IMG/VR virus record: IMGVR_UViG_3300020044_003647
Direction: 5' to 3' (one strand)
DNA from: an uncultured virus (IMG/VR IMGVR_UViG_3300020044_003647)
Lineage: Duplodnaviria; Heunggongvirae; Uroviricota; Caudoviricetes
DNA length: 64,000 nucleotides
This document shows positions 2,991-39,144 of the stretch, piece after piece. The stretch's first letter is position 1; each line of letters begins with the position of its first letter. The notes beneath the pieces were generated by a model. The model had not been told where the DNA came from. It was given only the letters and a program-made list of their open reading frames with translations, and did no database searches. The position numbers and the translations under genes are program-made.

Positions 2991-3083
2991 ATCCTAACTT
3001 AAATCCTATTGGTCAGAATAGGCAAAATTAGGATCGATTATAATTTTTGTTTCAATCTCTGACCAGATTGTTTTGCAAATGTA
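2991..3083 (-). ncRNA. Promoter plus two-hairpin kissing-loop leader RNA (type 2)
   Basis: TACATTTG box; CAAUCU-GGUCAG-AGAUUG; then AUCCUAA..CCUAUU-CUGACC-AAUAGG..UUAGGAU and a U-run. Confidence 0.7.
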
Positions 3084-3088
3084 ATTAA

Positions 3089-4190
3089 TTACATATTACC
3101 ATCAAAATTTTTTCGAATAATTGTGTCGATTTTTTTACTTATATCGTTAAAATAAGTCGTTTTTAGAATAGTGTCGGTTGTTGCTAACTCGTTATTCATT
3201 TCCTCAAACAAAGCGATTAAGTCTAACCTTGCCTTTTTCATCTTTGGAGTTGTAGCTTGTAACTCGTCTAAGTTTTCTAACATCAAATGCGATAGGCATA
3301 CCAGCTTGTGCATCAATTGGTCTTTACGTTTACTCATAATTCATTTTGCTAAAAGTCAATAGAAATTTATCTTTTCCCTCTGTGATGTATATTTCTTGTA
3401 GGTACTCTTGATTTGTAAAGGAAACGTAACCGCTATGATTGATTCCTAACCGCACTAATTTAGCATCTAGTAAGTGTCTAGGTATTCCAGACTTTTCGGA
3501 GAACGCTCGTGTGGTGCTGTGGGTTTCTGTTTGTGATATTACTAGCATAGTTCATCGGTGTTATCTTCTTTTCCCTCTTGCCAATTTACTTCCCAATCTT
3601 CAACGATTGAACTCACGTTAGTGAAAGTAAAGTAAAAGAACACGCAGTAAAATAGAATAAAAAACGCTACTGCTCCTGCTAGGAATGGGTGCAAATCTAT
3701 AAAGTTGAATAAGTCTTTCATTAGAATAAGTTGTTTAGTTGCTTAATAGGGTTTTGAAATATCTCGTCAAAGACTTTAGTAGCTTGGTCTAGTTGTGGAG
3801 TGTTTAATACTTCCGCATCGTTTACTTCCCAATCGTTAAGTAAAGACTGCATTAAGTCTTTAGCTTGTCTTAGTTCGTTCTCTAGATAAGCATTTCTAGT
3901 TCTTAATGCTTCTATTTGCTCCGCTTGAAATTTAATTAAATCATTCATTATTCTATGTCTTTTAAAAGGTTTGATATTATTGTTGCTAATCCGTTATTGT
4001 CGTACATTCCATCCGCTAGAAATTTAATCTCTTTAATGTAAACCTCTAAGGTAATTGCTTTTTTCATCCACTCCATTTTTTCATTAAATAAAGTGTTTGC
4101 TAGTTCTTCATAACAGTCAACATTATTGTCAACTTGGTTCGCTGGGTGGCTACTGTTGCCAACTCCTAATACTTGGTCATCGTAATTCAT
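3089..4190 (-). CDS. Cluster of small early genes (3089-3337, 3330-3548, 3542-3721 membrane peptide, 3721-3948, 3948-4190)
   Basis: Translationally coupled ORFs with homologues at 36063-37405. Confidence 0.7.
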
Positions 4191-4218
4191 AATATTTGTT
4201 TTTTAAAGTTTGATAGGG

Positions 4219-4281
4219 CAAATGTAAAATAAAAAAGTTAATAAAAAAATTTTTTTATATAAAAGTTTATTTGTAGGTTTG
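4219..4281. promoter_or_regulatory. Divergent Bacteroidota primary-sigma promoters around an 18-bp A/T palindrome
   Basis: TACATTTG (minus, 4219-4226) and TAGGTTTG (plus, 4274-4281) match the TAnnTTTG -7 box. ATAAAAAAATTTTTTTAT lies at 4241-4258. Conserved at 37942-38004. Confidence 0.7.
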
Positions 4282-4300
4282 CAAATGTAAGTAGGTTAAT

Positions 4301-4437
4301 GGCTTATAACGAAAAAGCATATATGCAGTGTGGGAATAAGAAACCTAAATTTTAAATTATGCAAAAAAGTTTATTTGAAATCCAAAACATTGATAAAACA
4401 CAAAAGCCCACATTGCTTATATGCAGTGTTAGTGGCA
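4301..4437. repeat. attC-like imperfect inverted repeat (candidate recombination site)
   Basis: TTATAAC ... GCATATATGCAGTGTGGG (4317-4334) / CCCACATTGCTTATATGC (4407-4424) ... GTTAGTGGCA. Confidence 0.6.
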
Positions 4438-5063
4438 GTTTTTCTTCCATTACGTATAAACAATCGGTTGATTTTTTATTACCTCGCCATTATTCAGGTA
4501 GGAAACCGAGTATTACTTTTTCTTTTGGTTACTTTGAAAATAACGAATTGAAAGCAGTATGCACATTTGGAAAACCTGCAAGTAATAGTTTATGTATTGG
4601 AGTTTGTGGCAAAGAATATAGCGAAAAGGTATTTGAATTAAACCGCCTTTGCGTTGATGGAGAAATCGAAATACAACTATCAAAGTTTGTAGCTTGGTGT
4701 TTAAATGAATTGAAAGTAAAAGATTTAATATTAGTGTCTTATGCTGATAGCCAAATGAACCATAACGGATATATTTACCAAGCTACAAATTGGATTTATA
4801 CTGGAATGACAAAAGCAAGAACTGATAAATATGTAGAAGGTGGTAAACATTCAAGGCATTACGATAATGAAAAACAAAACGGTTTAAGAAAATACCGAAG
4901 TGCTAAACACCGATACATTTATTTTGCAACAAGTAAAACCAAAAGAAAAGATTATATGAAAAAATTAAATTACGGAATTGAACCTTATCCAAAAGGCGAG
5001 AATAAAAAATACGAACTTGGTACATTTATCGAACCGATTGTTATTAGCACTGTCGTTTCTTAA
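4359..5063 (+). CDS. Mom-like (GNAT-fold) DNA adenine modification protein
   Basis: RHYSGR, GKPAS, ELNRL and LVSYAD..NHNGYIYQATNWIYTG motifs typical of Mu Mom homologues. Confidence 0.75.
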   Translation: MQKSLFEIQNIDKTQKPTLLICSVSGSFSSITYKQSVDFLLPRHYSGRKPSITFSFGYFENNELKAVCTFGKPASNSLCIGVCGKEYSEKVFELNRLCVDGEIEIQLSKFVAWCLNELKVKDLILVSYADSQMNHNGYIYQATNWIYTGMTKARTDKYVEGGKHSRHYDNEKQNGLRKYRSAKHRYIYFATSKTKRKDYMKKLNYGIEPYPKGENKKYELGTFIEPIVISTVVS

Positions 5064-5129
5064 AATTGCCACTAACTCGTGGCTACGACTGATAAATTGC
5101 GACCTATCACGCCAAAACAACAAAAAAGG

Positions 5130-5339
5130 ATGAAAATAACCCACATTAACACTATCCAAAATCCGAAGTTTATAATAGTTCGCCACTATGATAATTCTAT
5201 TGTAACTTTGCCATCTGAATTTAGAGTAGTTGAACAGGATGCAATCGGTTGCTGGCGTGTGCGAATTATCGATAAAATACCAAAAGAATATAAACAACTA
5301 AATAATACAGTATGGCTGGCAGACCAAAAAAAGGAATAG
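5130..5339 (+). CDS. Hypothetical protein (start revised to ATG 5130)
   Basis: Homologue 38062..38274 starts at the equivalent position. Confidence 0.7.
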   Translation: MKITHINTIQNPKFIIVRHYDNSIVTLPSEFRVVEQDAIGCWRVRIIDKIPKEYKQLNNTVWLADQKKE

Positions 5340-5461
5340 AAAAAAGAGTAGCGTATAACGGTAAACTTGAGAAGTATAAGATTGAAGTGATCGGAGGTAC
5401 AAAAGAATGCAACCGATTGGCTTACGATTATTTAACTAAAAAATACAATGAAAGAAAATAA
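5312..5461 (+). CDS. 49-aa basic protein starting MAGRPKKG; candidate DNA-binding regulator
   Basis: Conserved at 38247..38396 with mostly synonymous changes. Confidence 0.65.
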   Translation: MAGRPKKGIEKRVAYNGKLEKYKIEVIGGTKECNRLAYDYLTKKYNERK

Positions 5462-5531
5462 CGAGGATATTGTGCTTTTAATAGTTATGCTTTTACTAGC
5501 GATAACTTATGGCGTTTTAGTTTGTTGGTAA
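5448..5531 (+). CDS. 27-aa single-transmembrane peptide
   Basis: MKENNEDIVLLIVMLLLAITYGVLVCW; conserved at 38383..38466. Confidence 0.55.
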   Translation: MKENNEDIVLLIVMLLLAITYGVLVCW

Positions 5532-5555
5532 TTAAAATAAATTACTACATTTGCC

Positions 5556-5614
5556 TTTCATAATGTTTGATGTTTGATAATTAGAAAAGCCACTATTCAT
5601 CTAGTGGCTTTTTT
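5556..5614 (+). ncRNA. Candidate ~60-nt small RNA
   Basis: TACATTTG box at 5546-5553, then a conserved non-coding tract and an intrinsic terminator. Conserved at ~38490-38548. Confidence 0.55.
5585..5614. terminator. Bidirectional intrinsic terminator
   Basis: AAAAGCCACTA-ttcatc-TAGTGGCTTTTTT between convergent operons. Confidence 0.8.
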
Positions 5615-5715
5615 ATATCATCCTCAATCGGTGGTATTCCTTTCCATTTGTTGACGGCTTTCTCAACTCGCACCCAATCACTACCCTTTTTTATCCATTC
5701 ATATTGAGGTATCAA
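5593..5715 (-). CDS. 40-aa Trp/Lys-rich peptide, last gene of the lysis operon (TTG start)
   Basis: ..YEWIKKGSDWVRV..NKWKGIPPIED; conserved at 38527..38649 with synonymous changes. Confidence 0.6.
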   Translation of the reverse strand: MIPQYEWIKKGSDWVRVEKAVNKWKGIPPIEDDIKKPLDE

Positions 5716-28838: not shown

Positions 28839-29396
28839 TTATTTTGATTTTAACACTTCCTTGCATTTAATATCGTACTGTAATTTTTTGGCTATCAACT
28901 GCTCACGTGTGAATTTTAGTTGTCTTGTGTCGTTTGCTAGTTGTTCAATATCATTTGCGTAATCAACTCCATACCTATCAATTAAACCTAGTCTATAATT
29001 TAATTCGTTGCCATTTAAAAAGCGGTTGCACTTGCGGCATTGTTTGTGGCAATTCATTTCGTTGAATATAACGCCTGAATATATCTCGGCTTTTTTATAG
29101 TGTCCGCCATCCCATAACTCGGTGGTTTTTACTCCGCAGGATATGCAAGGTAATTCAGCATCACGCAACCTAATAAACTTCTGAAATGATTTTTTAGCCT
29201 CTGCCTCTAATTGCGTTAACGTTTTTAAAGCCGTTTTAAGGCTTTGTTTTTCCTTTTGCCACACTTTACTCGCATTTACTTTTACTTTTGCTCTAGCGTA
29301 TTGTATTGAAGCGTCAACGCATTTTTCATCGTTGCAATGCTTTTGTAAAAAACGAGTTGGTGTAAATTTCTGTTTGCAGTTTAGGCATCTAGGCAT
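28839..29396 (-). CDS. NinG/Rap-like endonuclease
   Basis: FIRLRD..PCISCG..DGGHY..NCHKQC.KCN..L.GN motifs. Confidence 0.85.
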   Translation of the reverse strand: MPRCLNCKQKFTPTRFLQKHCNDEKCVDASIQYARAKVKVNASKVWQKEKQSLKTALKTLTQLEAEAKKSFQKFIRLRDAELPCISCGVKTTELWDGGHYKKAEIYSGVIFNEMNCHKQCRKCNRFLNGNELNYRLGLIDRYGVDYANDIEQLANDTRQLKFTREQLIAKKLQYDIKCKEVLKSK

Positions 29397-29397
29397 A

Positions 29398-30228
29398 TTA
29401 TTCTATTAAGTAAGGCAATCCGTTTTTATTAATATCAAAAGCAAAAGAATTAAAGTGATATCCACGTGAGTAGGGATTTGTAACTGTAACGCTACGATCT
29501 GAATTAACATCTAAATTTATAACCGTTTCAGCTTTTTTTAGTACATAAGTTCCTAAATGTCCCAAAGGTTTGCCAGTACTTGCCGCTTTGTGTATAATTG
29601 CTATCACGTGAATATTATAATCATTTGTCCATTTTAAAATAAAATCACTCGCTTGTTTGCTTAAAATAATATCGTTTGTGTTTTCTACTAAATCCGCTAT
29701 TCCATCAATAGCAATCAGCTTGACTTCTTTTTTGTATAGAGTTTTTTGGTTTGTTAAACAGTAATCAATAAGTCCTAACCTTTCAGCAGATGATAAACTA
29801 CGGGTTGCATAACCTTTGTAATGCTCATAAACTGCTCCGCTAATATCCTGCACTCGCCTAAAAGTTCTTTGCGTGTAGTATTTGCCTTGCTCGGTGTCAA
29901 AATCCAGTATTTGATATTCTTTATCTCGGTGGCTTTTTATGTTTGGGAATAGTGTAGTAGCATTTCCACCAATGTAGCAACCTATCAATCCCGATTTTAA
30001 AAAAGATTTCTTTGCTTTTGATTCTGCAACTATTGCGGAGAACTCTCCAGCAGTCATAATTGGCGTATCGTAAAAATTTCCTTTATATTCGTGCTGGCCG
30101 ATTGAAAGTAAAATTTCTGGTTTTGGCATCTCTAAAGATAAATCAACAAAGCAATCATTCTCTAGTTGGCCAAAATTAAATTCAACTGGTGCATCTTGCA
30201 GGAGATCATCAAAATTTATATCATTCAT
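29398..30228 (-). CDS. RecA-like / AAA P-loop ATPase (putative replicative helicase)
   Basis: AESKAKKS Walker A variant, FDTEQG, IDGIADL and GHLGT motifs. Confidence 0.65.
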   Translation of the reverse strand: MNDINFDDLLQDAPVEFNFGQLENDCFVDLSLEMPKPEILLSIGQHEYKGNFYDTPIMTAGEFSAIVAESKAKKSFLKSGLIGCYIGGNATTLFPNIKSHRDKEYQILDFDTEQGKYYTQRTFRRVQDISGAVYEHYKGYATRSLSSAERLGLIDYCLTNQKTLYKKEVKLIAIDGIADLVENTNDIILSKQASDFILKWTNDYNIHVIAIIHKAASTGKPLGHLGTYVLKKAETVINLDVNSDRSVTVTNPYSRGYHFNSFAFDINKNGLPYLIE

Positions 30229-30718
30229 AGTAATTCATATTTTTAATTATTTGATTTGCGGTTTTGTAAAATGATTTTTCAACTTGCTCAAAACTCCAAT
30301 CCTTTATAAACTTTTTAGCGATTTCCTTTTGTTGCTTAATTATTATATCATCGTTGTTTTTAGCATCTAATTTCGAATGGATAAAATTAACATTTATTCC
30401 TATTGATTTTAAATAAGAATCAAATTCAACGTGATTTAAAGTTGTATGAAATATTTGAGAATGATAGTTCAAAGGTCTTTTTAGTTCATCATCAATTTTT
30501 TTTAATGCTACTTCCATAGATCCGTAATGCTCTAAATTTTGCCTCAACTGGATTGAAAGTAATTTAGCGAATAGTAAATTATCGTTTGCAATACTTTTAT
30601 CCTGCTCATCGATGCTATTTGAAATTAACTTTAGTGCATTAACATCCTCTTGATAAACTTTGCTTCGCTTAAACACGTTGTAAATGCGTTTAATGGCGTT
30701 ATCTTCTTTCCAACTCAT
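30221..30718 (-). CDS. Hypothetical replication-module protein
   Basis: Lies between initiator and ATPase; homologue at the window start. Confidence 0.7.
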   Translation of the reverse strand: MSWKEDNAIKRIYNVFKRSKVYQEDVNALKLISNSIDEQDKSIANDNLLFAKLLSIQLRQNLEHYGSMEVALKKIDDELKRPLNYHSQIFHTTLNHVEFDSYLKSIGINVNFIHSKLDAKNNDDIIIKQQKEIAKKFIKDWSFEQVEKSFYKTANQIIKNMNYYE

Positions 30719-31308
30719 ATTCTTAAAGGTATGTGGTTATCTTTTGGCTTTTGTTCCTTTTCGATGTATGATAGTGTTTGTAGCAAAGCGGATTTCCAAT
30801 TTTTAATTGGCTTATCATTTCCGTTTTTCCAACCATTAACAACCCACGCATCGTATTTGTGTTTTAATGCGGAGATTTTTACGCTTGGTTCTTTTTCTTT
30901 ACCGTAGGCTAAAAATAAATCCCAAGTTGGTATATTAATATCTTTAGATATTACATTAACATTAACATTAACATTATCATTAACAGTTGAAACCGTTGCA
31001 ACGGAATCAACGTTCGTTAACGTTCGTTGACTTTCGTTGACTTTCGTTGACTTTCGTTGCTCTGCGGATTTTTTACCTGCTTCACTCCATTGCTCACGCT
31101 TCTTTTCGTACTTAACTAAATCCCTTTTTAATTGCATCTTAATTGGCTCAAAAGCAATGTTTAAAAGCAATTCATCTGTTGTTGGATTTTCATCGTTTAC
31201 ATAAGCGTAAATATGCTTTAATAACCTACCTGCAACATCGTCTGGTAGTTGGTTTACTAAACCTTGACTGTCTGAATACAGTACAAATGATTTTTTATTT
31301 TCAGCCAT
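30715..31308 (-). CDS. Putative replication initiator (DUF6291-like N-terminus)
   Basis: KKSFVLY..GRLLKHIYAY N-terminus and NVNVNVN linker; C-terminus shared with 190..846. Confidence 0.7.
   Translation of the reverse strand: MAENKKSFVLYSDSQGLVNQLPDDVAGRLLKHIYAYVNDENPTTDELLLNIAFEPIKMQLKRDLVKYEKKREQWSEAGKKSAEQRKSTKVNESQRTLTNVDSVATVSTVNDNVNVNVNVISKDINIPTWDLFLAYGKEKEPSVKISALKHKYDAWVVNGWKNGNDKPIKNWKSALLQTLSYIEKEQKPKDNHIPLRI
31011..31060. repeat. Five tandem 10-bp repeats (C[G/T]TTCGTT..); candidate origin iterons
   Basis: cgttcgttaa cgttcgttga ctttcgttga ctttcgttga ctttcgttgc, inside the initiator gene. Confidence 0.65.
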
Positions 31309-31327
31309 AGTTAATAGTTTAAACAGA

Positions 31328-31429
31328 AAACTCCCATAAATCCAACCCGTCTCACTTGGTTTTCATTATAGGAGTTTATGTAATTCCTTTGCGTTGGTAT
31401 GTTGTGAGACGCCAACCGATAGCAAATAT
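31328..31429 (-). ncRNA. Promoter plus kissing-loop leader RNA (type 1, variant loops)
   Basis: Loops CGUCUCAC / GUGAGACG; inner stem AACC/GGUU. Confidence 0.7.
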
Positions 31430-31448
31430 AAAAATAAATTCTAAATAA

Positions 31449-31889
31449 TCAATCTAAATTCAATAAAATTTCCTCATTAGGATTTGGGATATCAACTCCT
31501 AAAAATTCTGCGCTCCATTTTTGAACTTCCATCACGTACTCCATAAACTGGACCGTACTCATTTCGCTAGAACTAATTTTCTCCGATAGCACTTGGCCAG
31601 TATCAATATTTACAATCTCATTACTTGGAGCAAACAACGGTAGCAATATTCCGTAATGAATAGAATCTGCGCTCCTGAACTCGCCCGTAGCATCTTTTAA
31701 ACCACTTTGTACAATCGGAATAACAACGCCCCAATAAAATGCGTTTTGATTGTTAGAACGGCTCTTTTTAAGTTTCTCAATGGTAATAACAATGTTTTTA
31801 CCCTCAAAATCTGCAATCGCTTGTTTAACTTGCTCTCGATTGCGTTTAAGATTTCCGTTCTCTACGCTGGAAATTATTTTATGTTTCAT
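31449..31889 (-). CDS. NinB/YbcN-like protein (start revised to 31889)
   Basis: Near-identical to 1228..1668. Confidence 0.55.
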   Translation of the reverse strand: MKHKIISSVENGNLKRNREQVKQAIADFEGKNIVITIEKLKKSRSNNQNAFYWGVVIPIVQSGLKDATGEFRSADSIHYGILLPLFAPSNEIVNIDTGQVLSEKISSSEMSTVQFMEYVMEVQKWSAEFLGVDIPNPNEEILLNLD

Positions 31890-32349
31890 TAATATAAAGC
31901 AATTTATAGCCATTACATAAATTCCATTCTTTATTTAATACACGATAAACAGCAGCAACATCCCTTTGAACAAATTTAGCGCAATCTCTTAAAGATTTGT
32001 GATTTGTAATTACATCATTTTTTATAGAAACTATTTTTTTATTAGTAACATTTTTGTTTTTAAAATTTGACATTGATGGATTTTGTAAATATGCTTTTTT
32101 TGAATTTTCAGAGTAGCTTAACCATTGTAAATTTGAAATACTATTATCATTTTTATTTCCGTTAATATGATCAACTATTGGTTTATTTTCTTTATTGTCA
32201 ATATATTTCATAGCAATAAGTCTATGAAGTCTGTACACGTTTCCGTCGATTATAACTCTATTATATCCTTGACTGTTTTTTGAAACTTTTAAAACGTTTG
32301 TATTGTAATAAAAATTATCATCTTTAATTTCAAATAAATCTATATTCAT
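31879..32349 (-). CDS. Free-standing HNH homing endonuclease, copy B only
   Basis: LHRLIA..VDHINGNKNDNSISNLQW..EN, plus a NUMOD1-like C-terminus; very AT-rich. Confidence 0.85.
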   Translation of the reverse strand: MNIDLFEIKDDNFYYNTNVLKVSKNSQGYNRVIIDGNVYRLHRLIAMKYIDNKENKPIVDHINGNKNDNSISNLQWLSYSENSKKAYLQNPSMSNFKNKNVTNKKIVSIKNDVITNHKSLRDCAKFVQRDVAAVYRVLNKEWNLCNGYKLLYINET

Positions 32350-33687: not shown

Positions 33688-33779
33688 ATCCTAACTTAAA
33701 TCCTATTGGTCAGAATAGGCAAAGTCAGGATAGATTATAGTTTTGTTTCAATCTCTGACCAGATTGTTTTGCAAAGATA
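33688..33779 (-). ncRNA. Promoter plus kissing-loop leader RNA (type 2)
   Basis: TATCTTTG box; same loops as 2991..3083; outer-stem changes keep pairing. Confidence 0.7.
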
Positions 33780-35963
33780 TTAAAATAAAGTTAATGTACT
33801 ATTTTTTTCTTCAACAAATGCTTTGTGATTATTTTCATTTATCTTAAAATAACTTTCTTTTAATTCAATAGATATGCTTTTACGATTCATTTTTATAGCA
33901 CTACAACCTTCTGAACCAATACCACCAAACGGACTTAAAACCGTTTCGCCCTCATTTGAGTATAAATGTAATATTCTTTCAATAGTATCTAACTGTAAAG
34001 GACAAATATGCTTTTCATCATTACCATCACGCCCAGATCTATATTGTAATGTTCTTGAATAATCTATATCATACCAAACTGGAGATGCGTATTTTTGCCA
34101 CAAATCAACTGGTAAATAATCTAATTTAGAACTGTCTTTATCTTGGTGTGTTATTGGTGTTTCATTATCGCCATCATTTCTAAAAAACAAAACATAATCA
34201 GGGATTCCTACTCGGCTCATTATACTATCTTTTTTTATAGTTTTATGAAGCAATCCTAATGCTTTTGTTCTTTGCATTTCCGTAACTGGATTTTTCCATA
34301 AAGTAACTTTTGAATGATAAATAAAACCTTCCTTTTGAAACCAGTCAATTAACATTCCAGAAAAATCACGCAATCCAATATATCCTTCTTTGCCTTTTTG
34401 TATTGGTAAATCCATACAATGAATAGCGCACATACGACCGCTTTTTAGCGTTCTTTTTAATTCAGGTATAAGGAATTTAAAATGACTCTCAAATTCTTTA
34501 TAATTAGACACGTTGCCCATATCCTCTTCTTTATCTGAATAAACATACAACTCCGCAAATGGTGGCGAAAATATAACTATATCCGCACAGTTATCAGCTA
34601 GTTTAGCAGTTTCTTGAACACAATCTCCGTTTATTAAATGATATTGATCTGTTTTAATTTCTTTATTCATAATTTTTACTTTTGATTTTGATTTTTTATA
34701 ATTAGTTTCTGCGCTATATCTAGACATTTCTTTAATGCGCTCAAAATGTTGTTTTTCTTTTTCTAATATTGTATTTCTAACATTAACTTGAGATTCAGGA
34801 ATAAGGATATGAACTGTTACTTTATTCTTTTGACCAAATCTATAACAACGTCTTACCGCTTGATAAAATGCCTCAAATTTAAAATCATAAGACATAAATA
34901 CCATTTGATTGCATTGTTGGTAATTCATACCAAATGAAGCTATTGAAGTCTTTGTAATTAATGTTTTAAATTGATTATTTGCAAATCCATTTAAATACTT
35001 CGCTTTATATTCTGGATTGTCAGAACCTTGCACATTTACGCTATTTTCAAGTAATTTTGATAAAGTGTCTGTTTCTTGATTCTTTAAACCCCAAACAATC
35101 CATTGATTCTCGTTTGAATTAACAAGTTCTAAGGTCTTTTCAATTCTTAAATCAAAAGACCTATTTAAATCTTTATGTAATTCAGTAGCTGAAACTGCAA
35201 CATCTCCAAATAGATTTTCGCTTAAATTATCTACTTTTATAATATGCTCAATATATTCTATTTCTGGCAAATTATATCCATCACTACAAAAACCTAAACT
35301 AGATGGATTGTCAATAGCCATAGACCATCCAGACACATATTTCCAAAAGTTATCTTGAGCGTGTTTTCTTAATCTCCATTTTGAAGTTTCCCCTCCATCG
35401 TGAACAAAAAACATTGCTAACATTTCTAAATAAGACATACCTCCTAAAAACTCGGAATGTTGACCTAATTCCATGTGATCGTTTGGAGATGGTGTAGCGG
35501 TACAAGCTAATTTATAAGGAGTGTTTTTAAATGTTTGTAAAATTAAAGATGAAAGTTTACCATCTCTGCCTTTTAAAATACTAGATTCATCTAAAACAAC
35601 TCCAGAATAAATGCTACAATCTATATTTTTTAGTTGATCATAATTTGTAATGTCAAAGTAATTTAAGTCAATGCCAAACTTTATAGCTTCATTTTTTGTT
35701 TGCTCTACTATTGCCAAAGGCGCAAGTATTAAAACTTTTTTATTTGTTTTTAAATATACTTGTTTTGCCCATTCTAATTGTGAGAATGTTTTACCTAAAC
35801 CGCAATCAAAAAAGAATGCGAATTTACCCTTAAATAAAGCAGTTTTAATACCATACTTTTGAAAGTCTTTTAGTAATGGATTTAATTCTGTTTCTGAAAT
35901 TTCAAAACCACTTTCTGTAAAAGTTTTACGTTTTGTTTCTAAGAACTTTTGATATTCTGTCAT
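33780..35963 (-). CDS. SNF2-like helicase fused to N4-C/N6-A DNA methyltransferase, copy B only
   Basis: DCGLGKT, DESS, TATP and QAVRRCYRFGQ; then FSPPF (motif IV) and LSPFGGIGS (motif I). Start revised to MTEYQ. Confidence 0.85.
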   Translation of the reverse strand: MTEYQKFLETKRKTFTESGFEISETELNPLLKDFQKYGIKTALFKGKFAFFFDCGLGKTFSQLEWAKQVYLKTNKKVLILAPLAIVEQTKNEAIKFGIDLNYFDITNYDQLKNIDCSIYSGVVLDESSILKGRDGKLSSLILQTFKNTPYKLACTATPSPNDHMELGQHSEFLGGMSYLEMLAMFFVHDGGETSKWRLRKHAQDNFWKYVSGWSMAIDNPSSLGFCSDGYNLPEIEYIEHIIKVDNLSENLFGDVAVSATELHKDLNRSFDLRIEKTLELVNSNENQWIVWGLKNQETDTLSKLLENSVNVQGSDNPEYKAKYLNGFANNQFKTLITKTSIASFGMNYQQCNQMVFMSYDFKFEAFYQAVRRCYRFGQKNKVTVHILIPESQVNVRNTILEKEKQHFERIKEMSRYSAETNYKKSKSKVKIMNKEIKTDQYHLINGDCVQETAKLADNCADIVIFSPPFAELYVYSDKEEDMGNVSNYKEFESHFKFLIPELKRTLKSGRMCAIHCMDLPIQKGKEGYIGLRDFSGMLIDWFQKEGFIYHSKVTLWKNPVTEMQRTKALGLLHKTIKKDSIMSRVGIPDYVLFFRNDGDNETPITHQDKDSSKLDYLPVDLWQKYASPVWYDIDYSRTLQYRSGRDGNDEKHICPLQLDTIERILHLYSNEGETVLSPFGGIGSEGCSAIKMNRKSISIELKESYFKINENNHKAFVEEKNSTLTLF

Positions 35964-35979
35964 TATATTAAAATTAAAA

Positions 35980-36057
35980 AACCCACTCAATGACCGCCAA
36001 GTACAAAGAGTGAGTTAGTTATAAATTCAATCTTGGCGGATTTCTTTTGCAATAATA
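35980..36057 (-). ncRNA. Kissing-loop leader RNA (type 3) upstream of the helicase-MTase gene
   Basis: AAUC-CGCCAA-GAUU; AACUCACUC..CUUGGCGG..GAGUGGGUU and a U-run. Promoter box is imperfect (TATTATTG). Confidence 0.6.
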
Positions 36058-36062
36058 GTAAT

Positions 36063-37914
36063 TTACATATTAAGATCAAAATTTTTGCGAATAATTGTAT
36101 CGATTTTTTTACTTATATCGTTAAAATAAGTCGTTTTGAGAATAGTGTCGGTTGTTGCTAACTCGTTATTCATTTCCTCAAACAAAGCGATTAAGTCTAA
36201 CCTAGCCTTTTTCATCTTTGGAGTTGTAGCTTGTAACTCGTCTAAATTCTCTAACATCAAATGTGATAGGCAAACTAGCTTATGCATTAATTGGTCTTTA
36301 CGTTTGCTCATAATTCATTTTACTAAAAGTCAATAGAAATTTATCTTTTCCCTCTGTGATGTAAATCTCTTGCAGGTACTCTTGATTTGTAAAGGAAACG
36401 TAACCGCTATGATTGATTCCTAACCGCACTAATTTAGCATCTAATAAATGTCTAGGTATTCCAGACTTTTCGGAGAACGCTCTAGTTGTACTGTGTGTTT
36501 CTGTTTGTGATATTATTAGCATAACTCGTCAAAATTATCTTCTTTACCATCTTTCCAATCACACTCCCACGTTTGCACTATCGCACTTACATTAGTAAAA
36601 GTAAAGTAAAAGAAAATGCAGTAAAAAAGGATGTAAAACGCAACCACTCCAGCAAGGAATGGGTGCGTGTCTATAAAGTTGAATAAATCTTTCATTAGAA
36701 TAAATTGTTAAGTTGCTCAATAGGGTTTTGAAATATCTCATCAAAGACTTTAGTTGCTTGGTCCAGTTGCGGAAATTCTAATACTTCCGCATCGTTTACT
36801 TCCCAATCGTTAAGTAAAGACTGCATTAAGTCTTTAGCTTGTTTTAGTTCGTTCTCTAGATAAGCATTTCTAGTTCTTAATGCTTCTATTTGCTCCGCTT
36901 GAAATTTGATTAAATCTTCCATTGTTTTATAGTTTAATTTTAAATTTTTCTTCAATCCATTGCTCGAATGTTTTGCTAACATAACTGCTACTAAAGCATT
37001 TTCTCATTTCTTCTTGTGCATCTTTATAGCATTCTTTTAGTTGCTCTACATTGTAAATGTTTTGCAGTGCTTCTTGATAGCCTTTAATAAATCCATCTCT
37101 TTGTAAGGTTTGATCCGTTTCTGGAAAAGTTTTTTCTGATAATTGTTTTAAGTCCATTATTTAATTTCTTTTAGTTTGTTAAAAATATAAGTATTATCGC
37201 CACACACCGCTTGGCAAAGTTCAACTATTTTCTTGTTAACCGCTTCTCGGTATTTGATGCGGTTTGTTAAATCTCTGATTTTGCTTTCTAAATCGCAAAT
37301 CTCGTTTTCCATTTGCTCCTCAATAGTCAACTCAATTTCTGTTTCCTCTTGGTTCGCTGGGTGGCTACTGTTGCCAACTCCTAATACTTGGTCATCGTAA
37401 TTCATAATGTTAATTTTTAAATGTTTCTAAATAATATTCTAGTCCTATTCTGTTTTGATCTTCACAAACTACATCAAAGGCATCTATAATTTGTTGCTTT
37501 TCTAGTTCTAAAAATTTATAATAATCGTTTATAAACTTTCTGCCATCTAATGAATGTAAATTGAATAAATTAGGATGCTCAATTTCTAACTGGCTAAATA
37601 ATTCTTGCATTGCTGTTTTCATAATTATATAATTTCGTCAATGTAAATAGTTCGTGATGGAAGCGCATCAATTTTAGCACGCTCCTCAATAGTTTCTAGG
37701 TAGTAATCATCTTGGCAATCATAGCCTTTTGATTCAAGTTCATTTTTAGCATCAAGAAATGATTTAGCTTTTACGGTTTTAATAATGCCACCGGTGTGAT
37801 AAGAAGTAAGGTTAAATGTTTTCATTAGTATCTAAATATTATTTGAGTTAGAAACCATACTGCTGCGCCAAACGCAATTAAATACTGCCAATCGTTTTTT
37901 TGAAATGTTTTCAT
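36063..37914 (-). CDS. Cluster of small early genes (36063-36311, 36298-36522, 36695-36922, 36927-37157, 37157-37405, 37410-37622, 37625-37825, 37825-37914)
   Basis: Coupled ORFs; several are homologous to 3089-4190, others are unique to B. Confidence 0.7.
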
Positions 37915-37941
37915 AATAAATGTTTTTAAAGTTTGATAGGG

Positions 37942-38004
37942 CAAATATAGAATCTAAATTGTAATAAAAAAATTTTTTTATATAAAAGTTTATTTGTAGG
38001 TTTG
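37942..38004. promoter_or_regulatory. Divergent promoters with A/T palindrome
   Basis: TATATTTG (minus), TAGGTTTG (plus) and palindrome at 37964-37981. Confidence 0.7.
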
Positions 38005-38061
38005 CCGTAAGTAATAGAAAATGCTTATAAATACCAACATTAAGCACTAAAAATACAATTA

Positions 38062-38274
38062 ATGATAAAAATAACTCACATCAAAACAATCCAAAACCCT
38101 AACTTTATAATAGTTCGGCAGTATGACAATTCTATTGTAACTTTGCCTAGTGAGTTTAGAGTAATGGAGGAAAATGCGATAGGTTGCTGGCGTGTGCGGA
38201 TCATCGATAAAATACCAAAGGAATATAAACAACTAAATAATACAGTATGGCAGGAAGACCAAAAAAAGGAATAG
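38062..38274 (+). CDS. Hypothetical protein
   Basis: Homologue of 5130..5339. Confidence 0.7.
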   Translation: MIKITHIKTIQNPNFIIVRQYDNSIVTLPSEFRVMEENAIGCWRVRIIDKIPKEYKQLNNTVWQEDQKKE

Positions 38275-38396
38275 AGAAAAGAGAACCGTATAACGGTAAA
38301 TTAGAAAAGTATAAGATTGAAGTTATCGGAGGTACAAAAGAATGCAACCGATTGGCTTATGATTATTTAACTACAAAATACAATGAAAGAAAATAA
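38247..38396 (+). CDS. 49-aa MAGRPKK protein
   Basis: Homologue of 5312..5461. Confidence 0.65.
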   Translation: MAGRPKKGIEKREPYNGKLEKYKIEVIGGTKECNRLAYDYLTTKYNERK

Positions 38397-38466
38397 CGAG
38401 GGATTGGTGCTTTTAATAGTTATGCTTTTATTTGCTATAACTTATGGCGTTTTAATTTGTTGGTAA
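38383..38466 (+). CDS. 27-aa TM peptide
   Basis: Homologue of 5448..5531. Confidence 0.55.
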   Translation: MKENNEGLVLLIVMLLFAITYGVLICW

Positions 38467-38489
38467 TTAAAAAACTATTACATTTGTCA

Positions 38490-38548
38490 CTCATAATGTT
38501 TGATGTTTGATAGATTAGAAAAGCCACTATTTATTTAGCGGCTTTTTT
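38490..38548 (+). ncRNA. Candidate small RNA ending in a bidirectional terminator
   Basis: TACATTTG at 38479-38486; TCATAATGTTTGATGTTTGATA; hairpin AAAAGCCACTA / TAGCGGCTTTTTT. Confidence 0.55.
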
Positions 38549-38649
38549 ATTTCATCTTCTATCGGTGGAATACCTTTCCATTTGTTTAACGGCTTCTGAA
38601 CTCGAATCCAATCTTTACCTTTTTTAATCCATTCGTACTCCGGTGTCAA
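38527..38649 (-). CDS. 40-aa peptide (TTG start)
   Basis: Homologue of 5593..5715. Confidence 0.6.
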   Translation of the reverse strand: MTPEYEWIKKGKDWIRVQKPLNKWKGIPPIEDEIKKPLNK

Positions 38650-39143
38650 ATCATCGGAAATTTAAGATAGCCTTTAAATCTTCGGTAAGCTAGATAAATA
38701 GCCAGTAGGATCAAGAGCCACAACCACCAAAGTTGAATTATAAAAGTACTCCAGTTGAATTGTTCCTTATAAACAATCTTTGTGCTTTCAACTTTGTTTA
38801 CTTCAATCTCGTTACTAACTGAATCAACAACGATTTTAGACACGCTTTTCTCATTTACTACTATTGTATTGTCTTTTCTTTTTTTCTTGCTTAAACGAGC
38901 GTTTTTGTACTTTGTTACTTTACCCTCATTGTTTGTGATTTCGATTGGCTGAGTTGTGTCAACTGCTTCAATTACGATTTCATCTGTTTCAACATCATAA
39001 ACCAATACCTTTTTATCAATAGAAGTGCTATCGGTTTTCACTACTGCAATAGTTGTAGCAATACTATCGGTTTTTTTGTCGTCTTTATTAATTGTTTTTG
39101 CTCCGCAGGAAACAATAAGAAATGCAAGTAGTAAATATTTCAT
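38646..39143 (-). CDS. Lipoprotein; candidate unimolecular spanin
   Basis: Lipobox LIVSC and C-terminal TM helix. Confidence 0.6.
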   Translation of the reverse strand: MKYLLLAFLIVSCGAKTINKDDKKTDSIATTIAVVKTDSTSIDKKVLVYDVETDEIVIEAVDTTQPIEITNNEGKVTKYKNARLSKKKRKDNTIVVNEKSVSKIVVDSVSNEIEVNKVESTKIVYKEQFNWSTFIIQLWWLWLLILLAIYLAYRRFKGYLKFPMI

Positions 39144-39144
39144 T

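What the first reader, a model, noticed from the sequence alone, without database searches (positions are those of the whole stretch)
4301..5076. Integron-cassette-like unit delivering a Mom-like gene, with no integrase in the phage
Seen: the gene body is bracketed by an exact 10-bp inverted pair, GTTAGTGGCA (4428-4437) and TGCCACTAAC (5067-5076). Next to it is a long imperfect hairpin (18-bp arms, 2 mismatches) closed by TAAC...GTTA. On the minus strand this reads G|TTAGTGGCA - antisense gene - GCCACTAAC - hairpin - G|TTATAAGC. Copy B has only GCTTATAA at this point (~38023) and no gene. The ATG (4359) lies inside the hairpin, so the site itself encodes the N-terminus (..PTLLICSVSGS). Established: integrated integron cassettes start with the part of their own attC core that complements their AAC-ending core. 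Inference: the phage captured a cassette, possibly using a host IntI-like recombinase, and expresses it opposite to cassette orientation from its own plus-strand promoter at 4274. The cores deviate from canonical GTTRRRY/RYYYAAC.
Basis: partly seen in the sequence, partly recalled or inferred. Interest (0 to 1): 0.85.

Follow-up and report, generated by a model that had tools for sequence, protein, structure and literature searches.

The report
Swappable Mom gene cassette in phage
A phage of freshwater Bacteroidota carries its DNA-protecting Mom gene as a precisely bounded, integron-style mobile cassette, one member of a very large and barely described cassette system that these phages share, in mirror-image orientation, with their bacterial hosts.

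Summary
Window 4310-5075 is a 766-bp unit: an attC-like hairpin site (4310-4437) followed by a Mom-family gene (4359-5063) whose start codon lies in the hairpin loop. It ends in TGCCACTAA, the complement of the core behind the hairpin.

The same unit, with exactly the same ends, sits in 10 other sequence contexts. At this locus, relatives carry no insert, other single cassettes (N6 or C5 DNA methylases) or arrays of up to six units.

Across 311 fetched loci, the cores flanking a gene are complementary in 96 of 144 consecutive site pairs, against 20 of 312 within a site.

The site family occurs in 77 of 151 sampled genomes of the host phylum. There it forms arrays next to a XerA-like tyrosine recombinase that lacks the insertion defining integron integrases. 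The window's phages encode no such enzyme; some larger phages do, one with 44 sites.

Bacterial cassettes are gene-then-site; phage cassettes are site-then-gene.

Attachment-site clusters without an integrase in virulent phages are in print (Qi et al. 2023). I found neither the scale, nor the recombinase type, nor the reversed phage orientation in print. No recombination was shown here.

The parts
4256..4282 (+). Conserved early promoter-like 27-mer, ending in TAGGTTTGC. In cassette-free relatives it lies 3 nt before the ATG of the 69-aa gene.
   Evidence: It is exact in 22 IMG/VR stretches. It is present with 5 or fewer mismatches upstream of the 69-aa gene in 25 of 25 relatives, and the gap is 3 nt in 19 of those 25. 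Reading TAGGTTTG as a Bacteroidota -7 box is recalled knowledge and was not tested. The sigma-70 scan gave nothing above shuffles.
4283..4309 (+). Left half of the attI-like platform (...GTAGGTTAATGGCTTATAA). It is constant in front of the different first cassettes.
   Evidence: The same left flank precedes different hairpins in L024, L034, L036, L037, L049 and L055.
4310..5075 (+). The Mom cassette: 766 bp, made of the attC-like site plus the gene.
   Evidence: The unit has identical ends in 10 further contexts. Likeness of metagenome contigs stops at 5076/5077.
4301..4437 (+). The attC-like site as integrated: outer core GGCTTATAAC, G, bulge, stem 4317-4334, loop, stem 4407-4424, then GTTAGTGGCA.
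   Evidence: Model R1 scores it at 78.9 bits, but this site was in the seed alignment. The arms are (I5).
4359..5063 (+). Mom-family gene of 234 aa. Residues 1-27 are encoded by the loop, the 3' arm and the inner core of the site.
   Evidence: Pfam PF25680 at 1.4e-28, residues 28-212 on profile positions 4-202 of 202. phrog_1384 'Mom-like DNA modification protein' at 6.4e-56. No in-frame start codon lies downstream of the core.
4428..4437 (+). Inner core GTTAGTGGCA, the cassette's own half of the R box.
5067..5076 (+). Distal core TGCCACTAAC, the exact complement of 4428-4437. The cassette ends at 5075.
5076..5096 (+). Right half of the attI-like platform (C|TCGTGGCTACGACTGATAAA). No hairpin follows it.
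   Evidence: Terminal junctions without a hairpin share a TAAC|TnnTnnnTAYAYnCGC-like motif in phage arrays and in bacterial arrays next to the recombinase.
5130..5339 (+). Conserved 69-aa gene. It is the first gene of this small rightward operon in cassette-free relatives.
   Evidence: It is 70-96% identical in 25 IMG/VR loci. It has no Pfam or PHROG family.
38006..38063 (+). The same locus in copy B: 58 nt including GCTTATAA (38023-38030), with no cassette and no site.
   Evidence: R1 finds no site in copy B.

Best explanation
**What it is.** Window 4310-5075 is a mobile gene cassette of the integron kind. In the free, circular form, its two ends (..TGCCACTAA and C-G-bulge-stem...stem-T-GTTAGTGGCA..) would make one long imperfect hairpin site. 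That site has a 10-16 bp outer (R-like) stem, a 4-nt bulge, an inner (L-like) stem with a conserved mismatch, and a variable loop.

**How it got there (inferred).** A tyrosine recombinase crossed this site, probably as folded single-stranded + strand, with an attI-like site. That site (GGCTTATAA|C-TCGTGGCTAC..) lies directly behind the phage's early promoter. The crossover falls inside the invariant TAAC.

**Which enzyme (inferred).** The phage has no such enzyme. It must have been supplied in trans by the host chromosome's cassette platform or by a co-infecting larger phage. Both encode a XerA-like recombinase beside arrays of the same sites.

**Orientation and function.** In phages the cassettes are the mirror image of the bacterial ones. 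The site precedes the gene, and the A-rich loop carries the start codon. The phage promoter therefore reads site and gene as one message. The cargo, Mom, is expected to modify phage DNA and so blunt host restriction. The cassette format would let phages swap such anti-restriction genes (Mom, N6, C5 and other DNA methylases).

**Shown:** architecture, exact ends, complementary cores, folding of the joined form, shared site family, position of the recombinase.

**Inferred:** the recombination itself, the strand used, the enzyme, and Mom's activity.
For: (a) **Exact, portable ends.** The hairpin-plus-mom unit occurs in the window and in 10 other flank contexts across 13 IMG/VR contigs (L313-L326). 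Likeness begins right after ..AAC and ends at ..GCCACTAAC every time. Three hairpin variants carry compensating changes in both arms.

(b) **Same locus, other cargo.** Of 25 relatives, 19 have no insert. Four have arrays or cassettes with the same logic: L024 has 6 units, L036 has 3, L037 has 2, and L034 has an N6 methylase. L049 has a C5 methylase.

(c) **Core logic.** Six-nt flanks across a gene are complementary at 5 or more of 6 positions in 96 of 144 consecutive site pairs. The figure is 20 of 312 within a site and 4.5% for random pairs.

(d) **Folding.** The script-joined junction folds at -24.7 kcal/mol, z -4.73, 0 of 200 shuffles as good. The integrated site folds at -14.5, z -0.56.

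(e) **Structure.** In 103 sites, 10 of 11 pairs of the inner stem change on both sides, and mismatches concentrate at two positions (20 and 48 of 103).

(f) **Direction.** The ORF starts inside the upstream site in 28 of 52 sense viral cassettes. Every array begins with a hairpin and ends without one.

(g) **Hosts.** The site family is in 77 of 151 sampled genomes of the phylum. The recombinase profile hits 52 of 151; 45 of those 52 have sites, against 32 of the other 99.

(h) **Recombinase position.** The recombinase lies on the predicted attI side of the array in 12 of 12 fetched loci that hold both a homologue and detected sites, out of 15 loci with a homologue. The same holds in at least 13 sampled genomes.

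(i) **Recombinase is likely active.** The catalytic R, K, H, R, H and Y are invariant in 13 recombinases.

(j) **Phage-borne platforms.** Five viral contigs carry the recombinase beside arrays. One 169.7-kb contig has 44 sites on one strand followed by the gene.

(k) **Cargo.** Mom family hits are. Thirty-two of 134 viral cassette ORFs are DNA methylases.
Against: - No recombination event, circle or empty attI-like site was observed. Only assembled contigs, not raw reads, were available.
- The integrated hairpin alone is not more stable than shuffles.
- The sites were collected with a pattern that demands TAAC, a stem and TGTTA. Pairing percentages and invariant columns are therefore partly built in, and model R1 inherits this.
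- Many loci were fetched through one 19-mer that also encodes the N-terminus of a methylase cassette type. The methylase share is therefore biased upward.
- The recombinase lacks the insertion held to be necessary for integron recombination. Cury et al. [quoted passage not shown]
- The one family hairpin tested in print, P12002L_attC1, was the single site of six that IntI1 did not integrate.
- R1 found no site in phage P12002L, although the units are visible by eye.
- The extra bases lie on the arm that would be cleaved. As I recall, this differs from canonical attC sites.
- Within the window's phage lineage, the whole platform plus cassette may simply have spread by homologous recombination.
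Confidence: 0.78

Rival explanations
1. The site is a fossil. The unit was once a cassette, but in this phage lineage it is inert. It arrived together with its platform by ordinary homologous recombination between related phages, using the phage's own ERF, exonuclease and NinG genes. No site-specific event ever happened in a phage without a recombinase.
For: The window's phages encode ERF, a repair exonuclease and NinG, but no tyrosine recombinase. The platform flanks (promoter 27-mer, 69-aa gene) are 70-96% conserved among relatives, which gives ample homology. The platform is bounded by a duplicated ATGAAA, which suggests a block insertion. No empty platform was seen in 25 relatives.
Against: At this one locus, relatives with the same platform carry six different contents whose breakpoints all fall at TAAC. 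The Mom unit is found behind 10 different left cores in unrelated contexts. That needs a site-specific step somewhere, though not necessarily in this phage.
Confidence: 0.3
2. The hairpins act mainly at the RNA level. They would be a 5' leader that presents the start codon in an A-rich loop, or a processing or attenuation signal of early phage messages. On this view their spread reflects selection for expression, with mobility a side effect.
For: In phages the folded strand is the message strand. The start codon lies in the loop in 28 of 52 sense cassettes. A G-T (G-U) pair closes the outer stem in all 103 aligned sites, though the search pattern required it. The + strand folds better than the - strand.
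Against: In bacterial arrays the same sites lie on the strand opposite to the genes, in 57 of 71 cassettes. An RNA role cannot explain cores that are complementary across each gene, nor the constant position of a recombinase. This reading can be true in addition to the main one, but not instead of it.
Confidence: 0.25
3. The units are miniature transposable elements moved by a single-strand HUH transposase (IS200/IS605-like, palindrome-associated elements) or a homing endonuclease, not by a tyrosine recombinase.
For: IS200/IS605 elements also use subterminal hairpins and insert next to a fixed tetranucleotide (recalled). HNH genes occur as cargo in 2 of 134 viral cassettes and elsewhere in the window. 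A 2024 survey lists many MITEs shared by Bacteroidota and their viruses (passages).
Against: Each unit has one hairpin, not two. Its two ends pair with each other, which such transposons do not need. No HUH transposase turned up in the Pfam scans of the window, of L257 or of the cassette ORFs. The only enzyme found at a fixed side of arrays is the tyrosine recombinase.
Confidence: 0.04
4. The inverted pair and the hairpin are chance features of AT-rich DNA.
For: Four other exact inverted pairs of 10-13 nt lie in the same 1.2 kb. The integrated hairpin has z -0.55.
Against: all argue against chance: family-wide core logic, identical ends in 10 contexts, the fold of the joined form, and hundreds of sites elsewhere.
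Confidence: 0.01

Closest known systems
Clusters of attC sites lacking an integrase (CALINs) in virulent phages: Qi, Rajabal, Ghaly, Tetu, Gillings 2023, Front Microbiol (PMC9892861). I read the abstract, section 3.4, passages and supplementary file 1.
   Same: These are phage genomes without an integrase that carry attC-bounded genes. DNA methylases are the cargo, and the paper proposes that cassettes help phages beat restriction. One of their phages, Polaribacter phage P12002L, holds units of exactly this family, including a Mom-like gene (gp53) as the last unit of an array. Their primer for P12002L_attC1 is a family hairpin.
   Different: They report 17 CALINs with two or more predicted sites, and for P12002L two sites 'with divergent directions'. 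Their second site is what I read as the hairpin-less terminal junction. The following are not in the parts I read: the reversed gene/site order, start codons in the loop, the attI-like platform, the host-phylum-wide site family and the XerA-like recombinase. P12002L_attC1 was the one site of six that IntI1 did not integrate.
Sedentary chromosomal integrons as stores of anti-phage defence cassettes (Darracq et al. preprint 10.1101/2024.07.02.601686, abstract and passages read).
   Same: The bacterial arrays of this site family look like this: long same-strand arrays, gene then site. Cargo includes GmrSD (2), DarT, AIPR, a reverse transcriptase, and type I and Eco57I-like restriction-modification genes.
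   Different: Those integrons have a canonical IntI. That preprint counts Bacteroidota among clades previously found without integrons. IntegronFinder 2.0 reports a single complete integron, in Salinibacter, for Bacteroidetes. Here the enzyme is XerA-like, and its gene points the same way as the cassettes.
Canonical integron attC sites and IntI (class 1, Vibrio). Features as stated in the passages, otherwise recalled.
   Same: Both have an imperfect palindrome with AAC...GTT ends, a variable loop and unpaired features. The start of a cassette complements its own distal core. The crossover lies in the conserved core. There is an array plus a hairpin-less attI next to the recombinase gene.
   Different: The cores are xxxxTAAC/GTTAxxxx, not RYYYAAC/GTTRRRY. 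A 4-nt bulge lies on the arm that carries the crossover. The recombinase lacks the IntI-specific insertion. In phages the gene lies on the other strand.
Promoter-early stem-loop (PeSL) mobile regulatory cassettes of T4-type phages (Arbiol et al. 2010). Recalled, not read here.
   Same: These are small phage genes preceded by a stem-loop, shuffled among phages in hyperplastic early regions.
   Different: As I recall, PeSL shuffling is explained by homologous recombination between repeated promoter and stem-loop copies. It has no cassette-specific complementary cores and no dedicated recombinase.
Mom of phage Mu (Karambelkar et al., bioRxiv 10.1101/861617 / PMC7261163; seen only as a search listing with the start of its abstract).
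   Same: The cargo belongs to the Mom family. In Mu, Mom makes a methylcarbamoyl modification that protects phage DNA from restriction.
   Different: Mu's mom is a fixed late gene under elaborate control (recalled). Here the gene is a portable unit under an early promoter, with 27 N-terminal residues supplied by the recombination site.

Membership tests
Integron gene cassette / attC site | An imperfect inverted repeat with conserved ..AAC at one end and GTT.. at the other, two stem regions and a variable loop. | tested here: met
   Window 4307-4431. In 103 aligned family sites, the inner stem has 10 of 11 pairs with changes on both sides. Caveat: the sites were selected for a stem.
Integron gene cassette / attC site | Core consensus RYYYAAC / GTTRRRY. 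| tested here: not met
   The window has CACTAAC and GTTAGTG. The family consensus is xxxx(T)AAC / GTTAxxxx. Only AAC/GTT agree.
Integron gene cassette / attC site | The first bases of an integrated cassette complement the distal core of the same cassette, so the free circle carries one complete site. | tested here: met
   In the window, 10 of 10 exact and 14 of 17 with flanks. In the family, 96 of 144 pairs against 20 of 312 within a site. The joined form has z -4.73.
Integron gene cassette / attC site | Gene precedes its attC (site at the 3' end of the gene), and arrays are read from a promoter on the attI side. | tested here: not met
   In the window and in 126 of 134 viral cassettes, the site precedes the gene and the promoter is on the far side from the attI-like junction. 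Bacterial members meet the feature in 57 of 71.
Integron gene cassette / attC site | Extrahelical bases and an unpaired central spacer that set strand choice. | tested here: inconclusive
   A 4-nt bulge and a mismatch hot spot exist, but on the arm that carries the crossover. Equivalence of function was not tested.
Integron gene cassette / attC site | Recognised by attC detectors (IntegronFinder / HattCI models) and recombined by an integron integrase. | not testable with these tools
   Those models are not on hand, and Rfam gave 0 hits. In print, HattCI predicted P12002L_attC1, a family hairpin, but IntI1 did not integrate it.
Integron integrase (IntI) | A tyrosine recombinase with the catalytic R-K-H-R-H-Y residues. 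| tested here: met
   PF00589 at 3e-39. The residues are invariant in 13 sequences. None of these enzymes is in the window.
Integron integrase (IntI) | The IntI-specific additional domain around patch III, necessary for activity (Messier & Roy 2001, as cited in the passages). | tested here: not met
   Against IntI4 (2a3v), query residues 269-289 stand opposite chain residues 180-242, so about 42 residues are missing. TIGR02249 scores 133-208 bits against a cut-off of 265, always in two stretches that skip model positions about 180-238, in 9 of 9 proteins. The best family is NF040815, XerA type.
Integron integrase (IntI) | The gene lies next to attI at one fixed end of the array. | tested here: met
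   It lies on the predicted side in 12 of 12 loci that hold both and in at least 13 sampled genomes. It is co-directional with the cassette genes, not divergent.
CALIN (cluster of attC sites lacking an integrase) | Two or more attC sites and no integrase nearby. | tested here: not met
   The window has one site only. Relatives L024, L036 and L037 would qualify.
Mom family (PF25680) | Full-length match above the curated score. | tested here: met
   100.4 bits against a cut-off of 27.1, profile positions 4-202 of 202. phrog_1384 at 6.4e-56. Enzyme activity was not tested.
IS200/IS605-type palindrome-associated element or MITE | Two subterminal hairpins, or terminal inverted repeats with target duplication, and a Y1/HUH or DDE transposase in the genome. 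| tested here: not met
   There is one hairpin per unit, no target duplication and no such transposase in the scans.

The most novel reading that the evidence does not exclude
Bacteroidota and their phages share a widespread analogue of the integron that standard integron finders miss. It uses hairpin sites with TAAC/GTTA cores and a XerA-like recombinase that lacks the IntI insertion. Bacteria use it in the classical sense, to bank defence and other genes. Phages run the same sites in mirror image. The site then sits in front of the gene and its loop supplies the translation start, giving phages an exchangeable library of anti-restriction genes (Mom and many DNA methylases). This library reaches a 44-site array with its own recombinase in one roughly 170-kb phage contig. 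On this reading, the window's Mom unit is one borrowed book from that library, moved by an enzyme supplied in trans.
Probability: 0.55. Interest if true: 0.9.

Novelty: new variant of a known kind. Interest (0 to 1): 0.8.

Why it matters
**For phage biology.** Counter-defence genes would be shown to travel as precise, promoter-less plug-in units behind an early promoter. This mirrors the way hosts bank defence genes. Host arrays hold GmrSD-type enzymes that, as I recall, attack modified DNA; phage arrays hold the modifying enzymes.

**For integron biology.**
- The work points to a large cassette system in a phylum that surveys list as almost integron-free.
- The system is driven by a recombinase without the domain thought indispensable. 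This makes directly testable the question of what is really needed to recombine folded hairpin sites.
- A recombination site doubles as a 5' leader and an N-terminal coding segment, which constrains both functions.

**Practically.** Model R1, the terminal-junction motif and the recombinase profile give a way to mine phage anti-restriction genes and host defence genes in Bacteroidota.

Tried and rejected
- **Rfam** (evalue mode, window 3800-5600): 0 hits.
- **Sigma-70 promoter and terminator scan:** 9 promoter-like sites against 9.4 expected, and 0 terminators. It is uninformative for this phylum.
- **First two pattern scanners:** they were too loose, giving 47 'sites' in the window against 23-39 in shuffles. 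I replaced them with a stricter pattern and with model R1.
- **R1 on phage P12002L:** 0 hits at E up to 1, although the units are visible by eye. R1 therefore misses short or divergent members, and all counts made with it are lower bounds.
- **Own genome:** none is held.
- **Earlier findings of this scan:** nothing on record.
- **Sequencing runs:** only assembled contigs with word shares of 0.30 or less. Laying four of them gave no circle joint. One contig skips 4284-5329 with 35 other letters between, which is a relative without the cassette and without the 69-aa gene, not an excision product. Contigs cannot show rare circles, so this says nothing against excision.
- **Terminase family search** on the five recombinase-bearing viral contigs: one weak hit below the cut-off. 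Their viral nature therefore rests on IMG/VR and CheckV (92, 82, 81, 43 and 10% completeness) and was not verified here.
- **L050** matched the 17-mer by chance and is unrelated.
- **The + strand reading of the unit** (gene, then hairpin, crossover at G|TT) was considered and rejected. It would separate ORFs from start codons that lie in the upstream loop in two different frames. It would also leave a variable hairpin as the phage's resident site and leave the last unit without a hairpin.
- **pdif-type modules** (genes between inverted Xer sites; recalled) were considered. The cores here differ from cassette to cassette and pair with each other, which fixed Xer sites would not explain.
- **Literature:** 7 full-text searches found no paper that describes this site family, a Mom cassette or the reversed phage orientation. 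The library lacks most subscription journals.
Full report
**The window**

A self-comparison shows two related phage genomes of about 30 kb laid end to end. Copy A runs from 1 to about 30.5 kb and copy B from about 30.5 to 61 kb, at 70-92% identity in blocks. Distant named relatives are Flavobacterium phages of the vB_FspS group; they match the exonuclease gene only, at about 75%. Close relatives are many IMG/VR contigs. No whole genome is held for the window.

Almost all genes lie on the minus strand. The finding lies in a short rightward operon that diverges from them at about 4200-4300.

**The observation**

- the exact 10-nt inverted pair at 4428-4437 and 5067-5076;
- the 18-nt arms at 4317-4334 and 4407-4424 with two mismatches;
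- TAAC and GTTA closing them;
- the ATG at 4359 inside the loop;
- GCTTATAA without a gene in copy B.

The ORF 4359-5063 is a Mom-family protein. Pfam PF25680 scores 1.4e-28 over profile positions 4-202 of 202, and phrog_1384 scores 6.4e-56. The family match begins at residue 28. The first 27 residues are therefore encoded by the loop, the 3' arm and the inner core. No in-frame ATG, GTG or TTG lies behind the core.

By itself the locus is not statistically remarkable. Four other exact inverted pairs of 10-13 nt lie in the same 1.2 kb. The integrated hairpin folds no better than shuffles.

**What relatives show at this locus**

A 27-mer ending in TAGGTTTGC (window 4256-4282) is conserved in 25 of 25 relatives. 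In 19 of the 25 it lies 3 nt before the ATG of a conserved 69-aa gene (window 5130).

Six of the 25 have inserts there:
- Two are plain genes without sites (L023, L033).
- Four follow the pattern GGCTTATAAC, hairpin, GTTAxxxx, gene, xxxxTAAC, hairpin, and so on, ending in xxxxTAAC followed by a conserved TCRTKGCTAC.. with no hairpin.

L024 has six such units, L036 three and L037 two. L034 has one, an N6 DNA methylase. L049, found separately, has a C5 methylase. The left flank GGTTAATGGCTTATAA is constant, while the first hairpin differs from phage to phage. So the locus is a hot spot whose breakpoints always fall at TAAC.

**The Mom unit is portable with exact ends**

A search with the Mom protein found 45 IMG/VR loci. 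In 13 of them the match includes the site-encoded N-terminus. Printing the junctions shows the hairpin-plus-gene unit in 10 flank contexts other than the window's. Likeness always starts directly after ..AAC and always ends at ..GCCACTAAC, whatever lies outside.

Three hairpin variants occur, and both arms change together, although the 3' arm is coding. More distant Mom genes, matching from residue 28-31 on, have no such sites.

Contigs of public metagenome runs laid on the window also stop resembling it at 5076/5077 in three runs. This is weak support only.

**Family-wide logic**

A stricter pattern (TAAC, G or A, four bases, a 10-bp stem with at most one mismatch, TGTTA) finds 312 distinct sites in the 311 loci held at that point. 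The pattern says nothing about the six bases outside TAAC and GTTA, so these give an unbiased test:
- Across a gene they are complementary at 5 or 6 of 6 positions in 96 of 144 consecutive pairs.
- Within one site this holds in 20 of 312.
- In random pairs it holds in 4.5%.

The 48 failing pairs include cases where an intermediate, degenerate site was missed.

Joining the unit's two ends in a script gives a site that folds at -24.7 kcal/mol on the + strand (z -4.73, 0 of 200 shuffles as good). The - strand gives -22.0. The integrated site gives -14.5, z -0.56.

In an alignment of 103 sites, the inner stem has changes on both sides in 10 of 11 pairs. Mismatches pile up at two neighbouring positions (20 and 48 of 103). 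A 4-nt bulge separates the inner stem from the outer one. Because sites were chosen for a stem, the pairing percentage is partly built in. The variety of pair types is not.

**Which way round the unit runs**

Two readings are possible, because the site is nearly symmetric.

The evidence favours a unit that starts with the hairpin and ends in xxxxTAA, with the crossover within TAAC on the + strand:
- Arrays begin with a hairpin that varies and end without one.
- In 28 of 52 sense viral cassettes the ORF starts inside the upstream site.
- Those starts use at least two different frames relative to GTTA. The hairpin must therefore travel with the gene behind it.

**The same sites in bacteria, and a recombinase**

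One 19-mer from a hairpin arm occurs in more than 130 IMG/VR contigs and in more than 126 genome contigs. Nearly all of the genome contigs are labelled Bacteroidota (Flavobacteriales, Chitinophagales, Cytophagales, Sphingobacteriales, Saprospiraceae).

Model R1 finds sites in 77 of 151 genomes sampled evenly from the phylum of G001, often 10-20 per genome and clustered.

In locus L257, at least 12 sites on one strand separate genes that all lie on the other strand. This is the classical gene-then-site order. About 3 kb beyond the end of the array lies a 369-aa tyrosine recombinase. Its properties are:
- PF00589 at 3e-39.
- Best NCBIfam families XerA type (NF040815: 213 bits, cut-off 220) and integron integrase (TIGR02249: 208 bits, cut-off 265, in two stretches).
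- Against the solved Vibrio integron integrase 2a3v, about 42 residues are missing exactly where the IntI-specific insertion lies. The best solved relatives are archaeal XerA proteins.

Eight further homologues behave the same way. The catalytic residues are invariant in 13 sequences.

tblastn found homologues in 15 distinct fetched loci. In the 12 of these that also hold detected sites, the gene lies on the side where the hairpin-less junction is predicted.

In the phylum sample, the recombinase profile (E at most 1e-60) hits 52 of 151 genomes. Of those 52, 45 have sites, against 32 of the other 99. All 19 genomes with a hit at E 1.5e-120 or better have sites. In at least 13 genomes the gene lies within about 12 kb of an array on the predicted side; I saw one exception, G136:C5. 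Related genomes share labels, so these counts are not independent events.

Hairpin-less terminal junctions of phage arrays and of bacterial arrays share a motif of the form TAAC|TnnTnnnTAYAYnCGC. The window has a slightly degenerate copy, TCGTGGCTACGAC.

**Mirror-image use in phages**

I defined cassettes as a site plus the first downstream complementary core. This gives 205 distinct longest ORFs:
- In viral contigs, 126 of 134 lie on the site's + strand (site, then gene).
- In genome contigs, 57 of 71 lie on the other strand (gene, then site).

Among ORFs with a Pfam family the split is 39 of 41 against 24 of 27. The genome-contig exceptions include L203 and L234, which carry phage-type small sense ORFs.

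Viral cassettes are short: median ORF 103 aa against 255 aa. Of 134 viral ORFs, 41 have a Pfam family, and 32 of those are DNA methylases (N6_N4 24, MT-A70 2, D12 2, C5 2, Dam 1, EcoRI-type 1). That share is inflated, because the 19-mer used to fetch loci encodes part of a methylase cassette's N-terminus.

Bacterial cassettes carry GmrSD (2), DarT, AIPR, a reverse transcriptase, type I and Eco57I-like restriction-modification genes, a YhcG nuclease and many unrelated functions.

Five viral contigs carry the recombinase beside arrays, there co-directional with and downstream of the cassette genes. By CheckV they are 92, 82, 81, 43 and 10% complete. One of them, 169.7 kb long, has 44 R1 sites on one strand between 77,245 and 114,900, followed by the recombinase gene.

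The window's two phages have none. No PF00589 hit appeared in the 43 of 72 ORFs of 90 aa or more that I scanned, and the best tblastn gave E 0.021.

**What is in print**

Qi et al. 2023 (PMC9892861; abstract, section 3.4, passages and supplementary file 1 read) report 17 clusters of attC sites without an integrase in phages. They show that five of six sites from three virulent phages are integrated by IntI1. They suggest that cassettes give phages methylases against restriction.

One of their phages, Polaribacter phage P12002L, contains units of this very family:
- gp55, gp54 (a methylase) and gp53 (Mom-like) form one array.
- gp38 to gp35 form another.

Their primer for P12002L_attC1 is a family hairpin, and it was the site that failed with IntI1. 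Their attC2 lies on the other strand across what I read as the terminal junction.

IntegronFinder 2.0 reports one complete integron in Bacteroidetes, in Salinibacter (passage). A 2024 preprint counts Bacteroidota among clades previously found without integrons (passage). Cury et al. [quoted passage not shown] Smyshlyaev et al. 2021 note that the insertion is 'not fully conserved' in their integron-like subgroup (passage). A 2024 survey of MITEs shared by Bacteroidota and their viruses may include these hairpins under another name, but I could not tell from the passages.

Seven full-text searches found no description of the site family, of a Mom cassette or of the reversed orientation. Supplements of preprints were not available, and subscription journals are mostly absent from the library.

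**Verdict**

The finding is a genuine integron-type cassette carrying Mom. It sits in an attI-like platform behind an early phage promoter, in a phage without a recombinase.

It fails strict membership of 'attC/IntI integron' on three tested points: the core consensus, the gene/site order, and the recombinase's missing insertion. It works like one on every structural test I could run.

The recombination itself, the strand, the enzyme and Mom's activity remain inferred.

Noticed in passing
IMG/VR contig behind L066 (handle G157), contig coordinates 77,245-114,900 and about 115.7-116.6 kb: A 169.7-kb viral contig (CheckV 82%) carries 44 R1 sites, all on one strand, over 37.6 kb. A XerA-like recombinase gene follows directly. 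This is by far the largest phage-borne array seen here.
   Followed up: partly
L312 (Polaribacter phage P12002L, NC_028924) 37,250-39,250 and 29,200-32,330, minus strand: This isolated virulent phage has at least two arrays of the same hairpin-gene units: gp55 / gp54 methylase / gp53 Mom-like, and gp38 to gp35. Both arrays end in the same roughly 70-nt sequence, AACGGATAAAACAAG.. Model R1 misses all of them.
   Followed up: partly
window 33776-36041 (copy B), against the junction at about 3068-3079 in copy A: Copy B has a 2.27-kb insert absent from A. It encodes a 736-aa helicase / N6_N4 DNA methylase fusion (33780-35990, minus strand). The two sister phages therefore carry different DNA-modification genes at different hot spots. 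No R1 site flanks this insert.
   Followed up: no
window 4685-4786 (+), inside the mom gene: There is a weak partial R1 match (19.6 bits, E 0.015, model positions 12-128) built on an exact 13-nt inverted repeat, TTTGTAGCTTGGT / ACCAAGCTACAAA. It has no TAAC/GTTA ends. It could be chance or a relic of a site.
   Followed up: no
L024 700-1070 (minus-strand units) and 4355-4910; L025 4404-4542; L026 4403-4809: Relatives of the window's phage have further cassette hot spots. One is in the leftward operon upstream of the promoter. Another is just behind the 49-aa gene (window equivalent about 5461-5700), where the window itself has no site.
   Followed up: no
window 4283-4300 against L024 1488-1506: The platform with its array appears to have been inserted between two copies of ATGAAA, the start of the 69-aa gene. 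L024 keeps AAAATGAAAGTAGG at the left edge. The window has AAATGTAAGTAGG, so the orphaned start codon is followed at once by a stop.
   Followed up: no
L257 15,781-18,720: Between the last regular cassette and the recombinase gene of this bacterial array lie a hairpin-less junction (GGCGGTAAC|TTACTTATAGGCG), a degenerate site (TAAAG.. / ..GTTGT) and two small HTH (Xre-type) genes. These genes might regulate the recombinase.
   Followed up: no
window 1-64000: The window holds two complete-looking, related phage genomes in tandem, followed by part of a large ORF (61056-63998). I could not tell whether this reflects a real tandem arrangement or how the record was put together.
   Followed up: no
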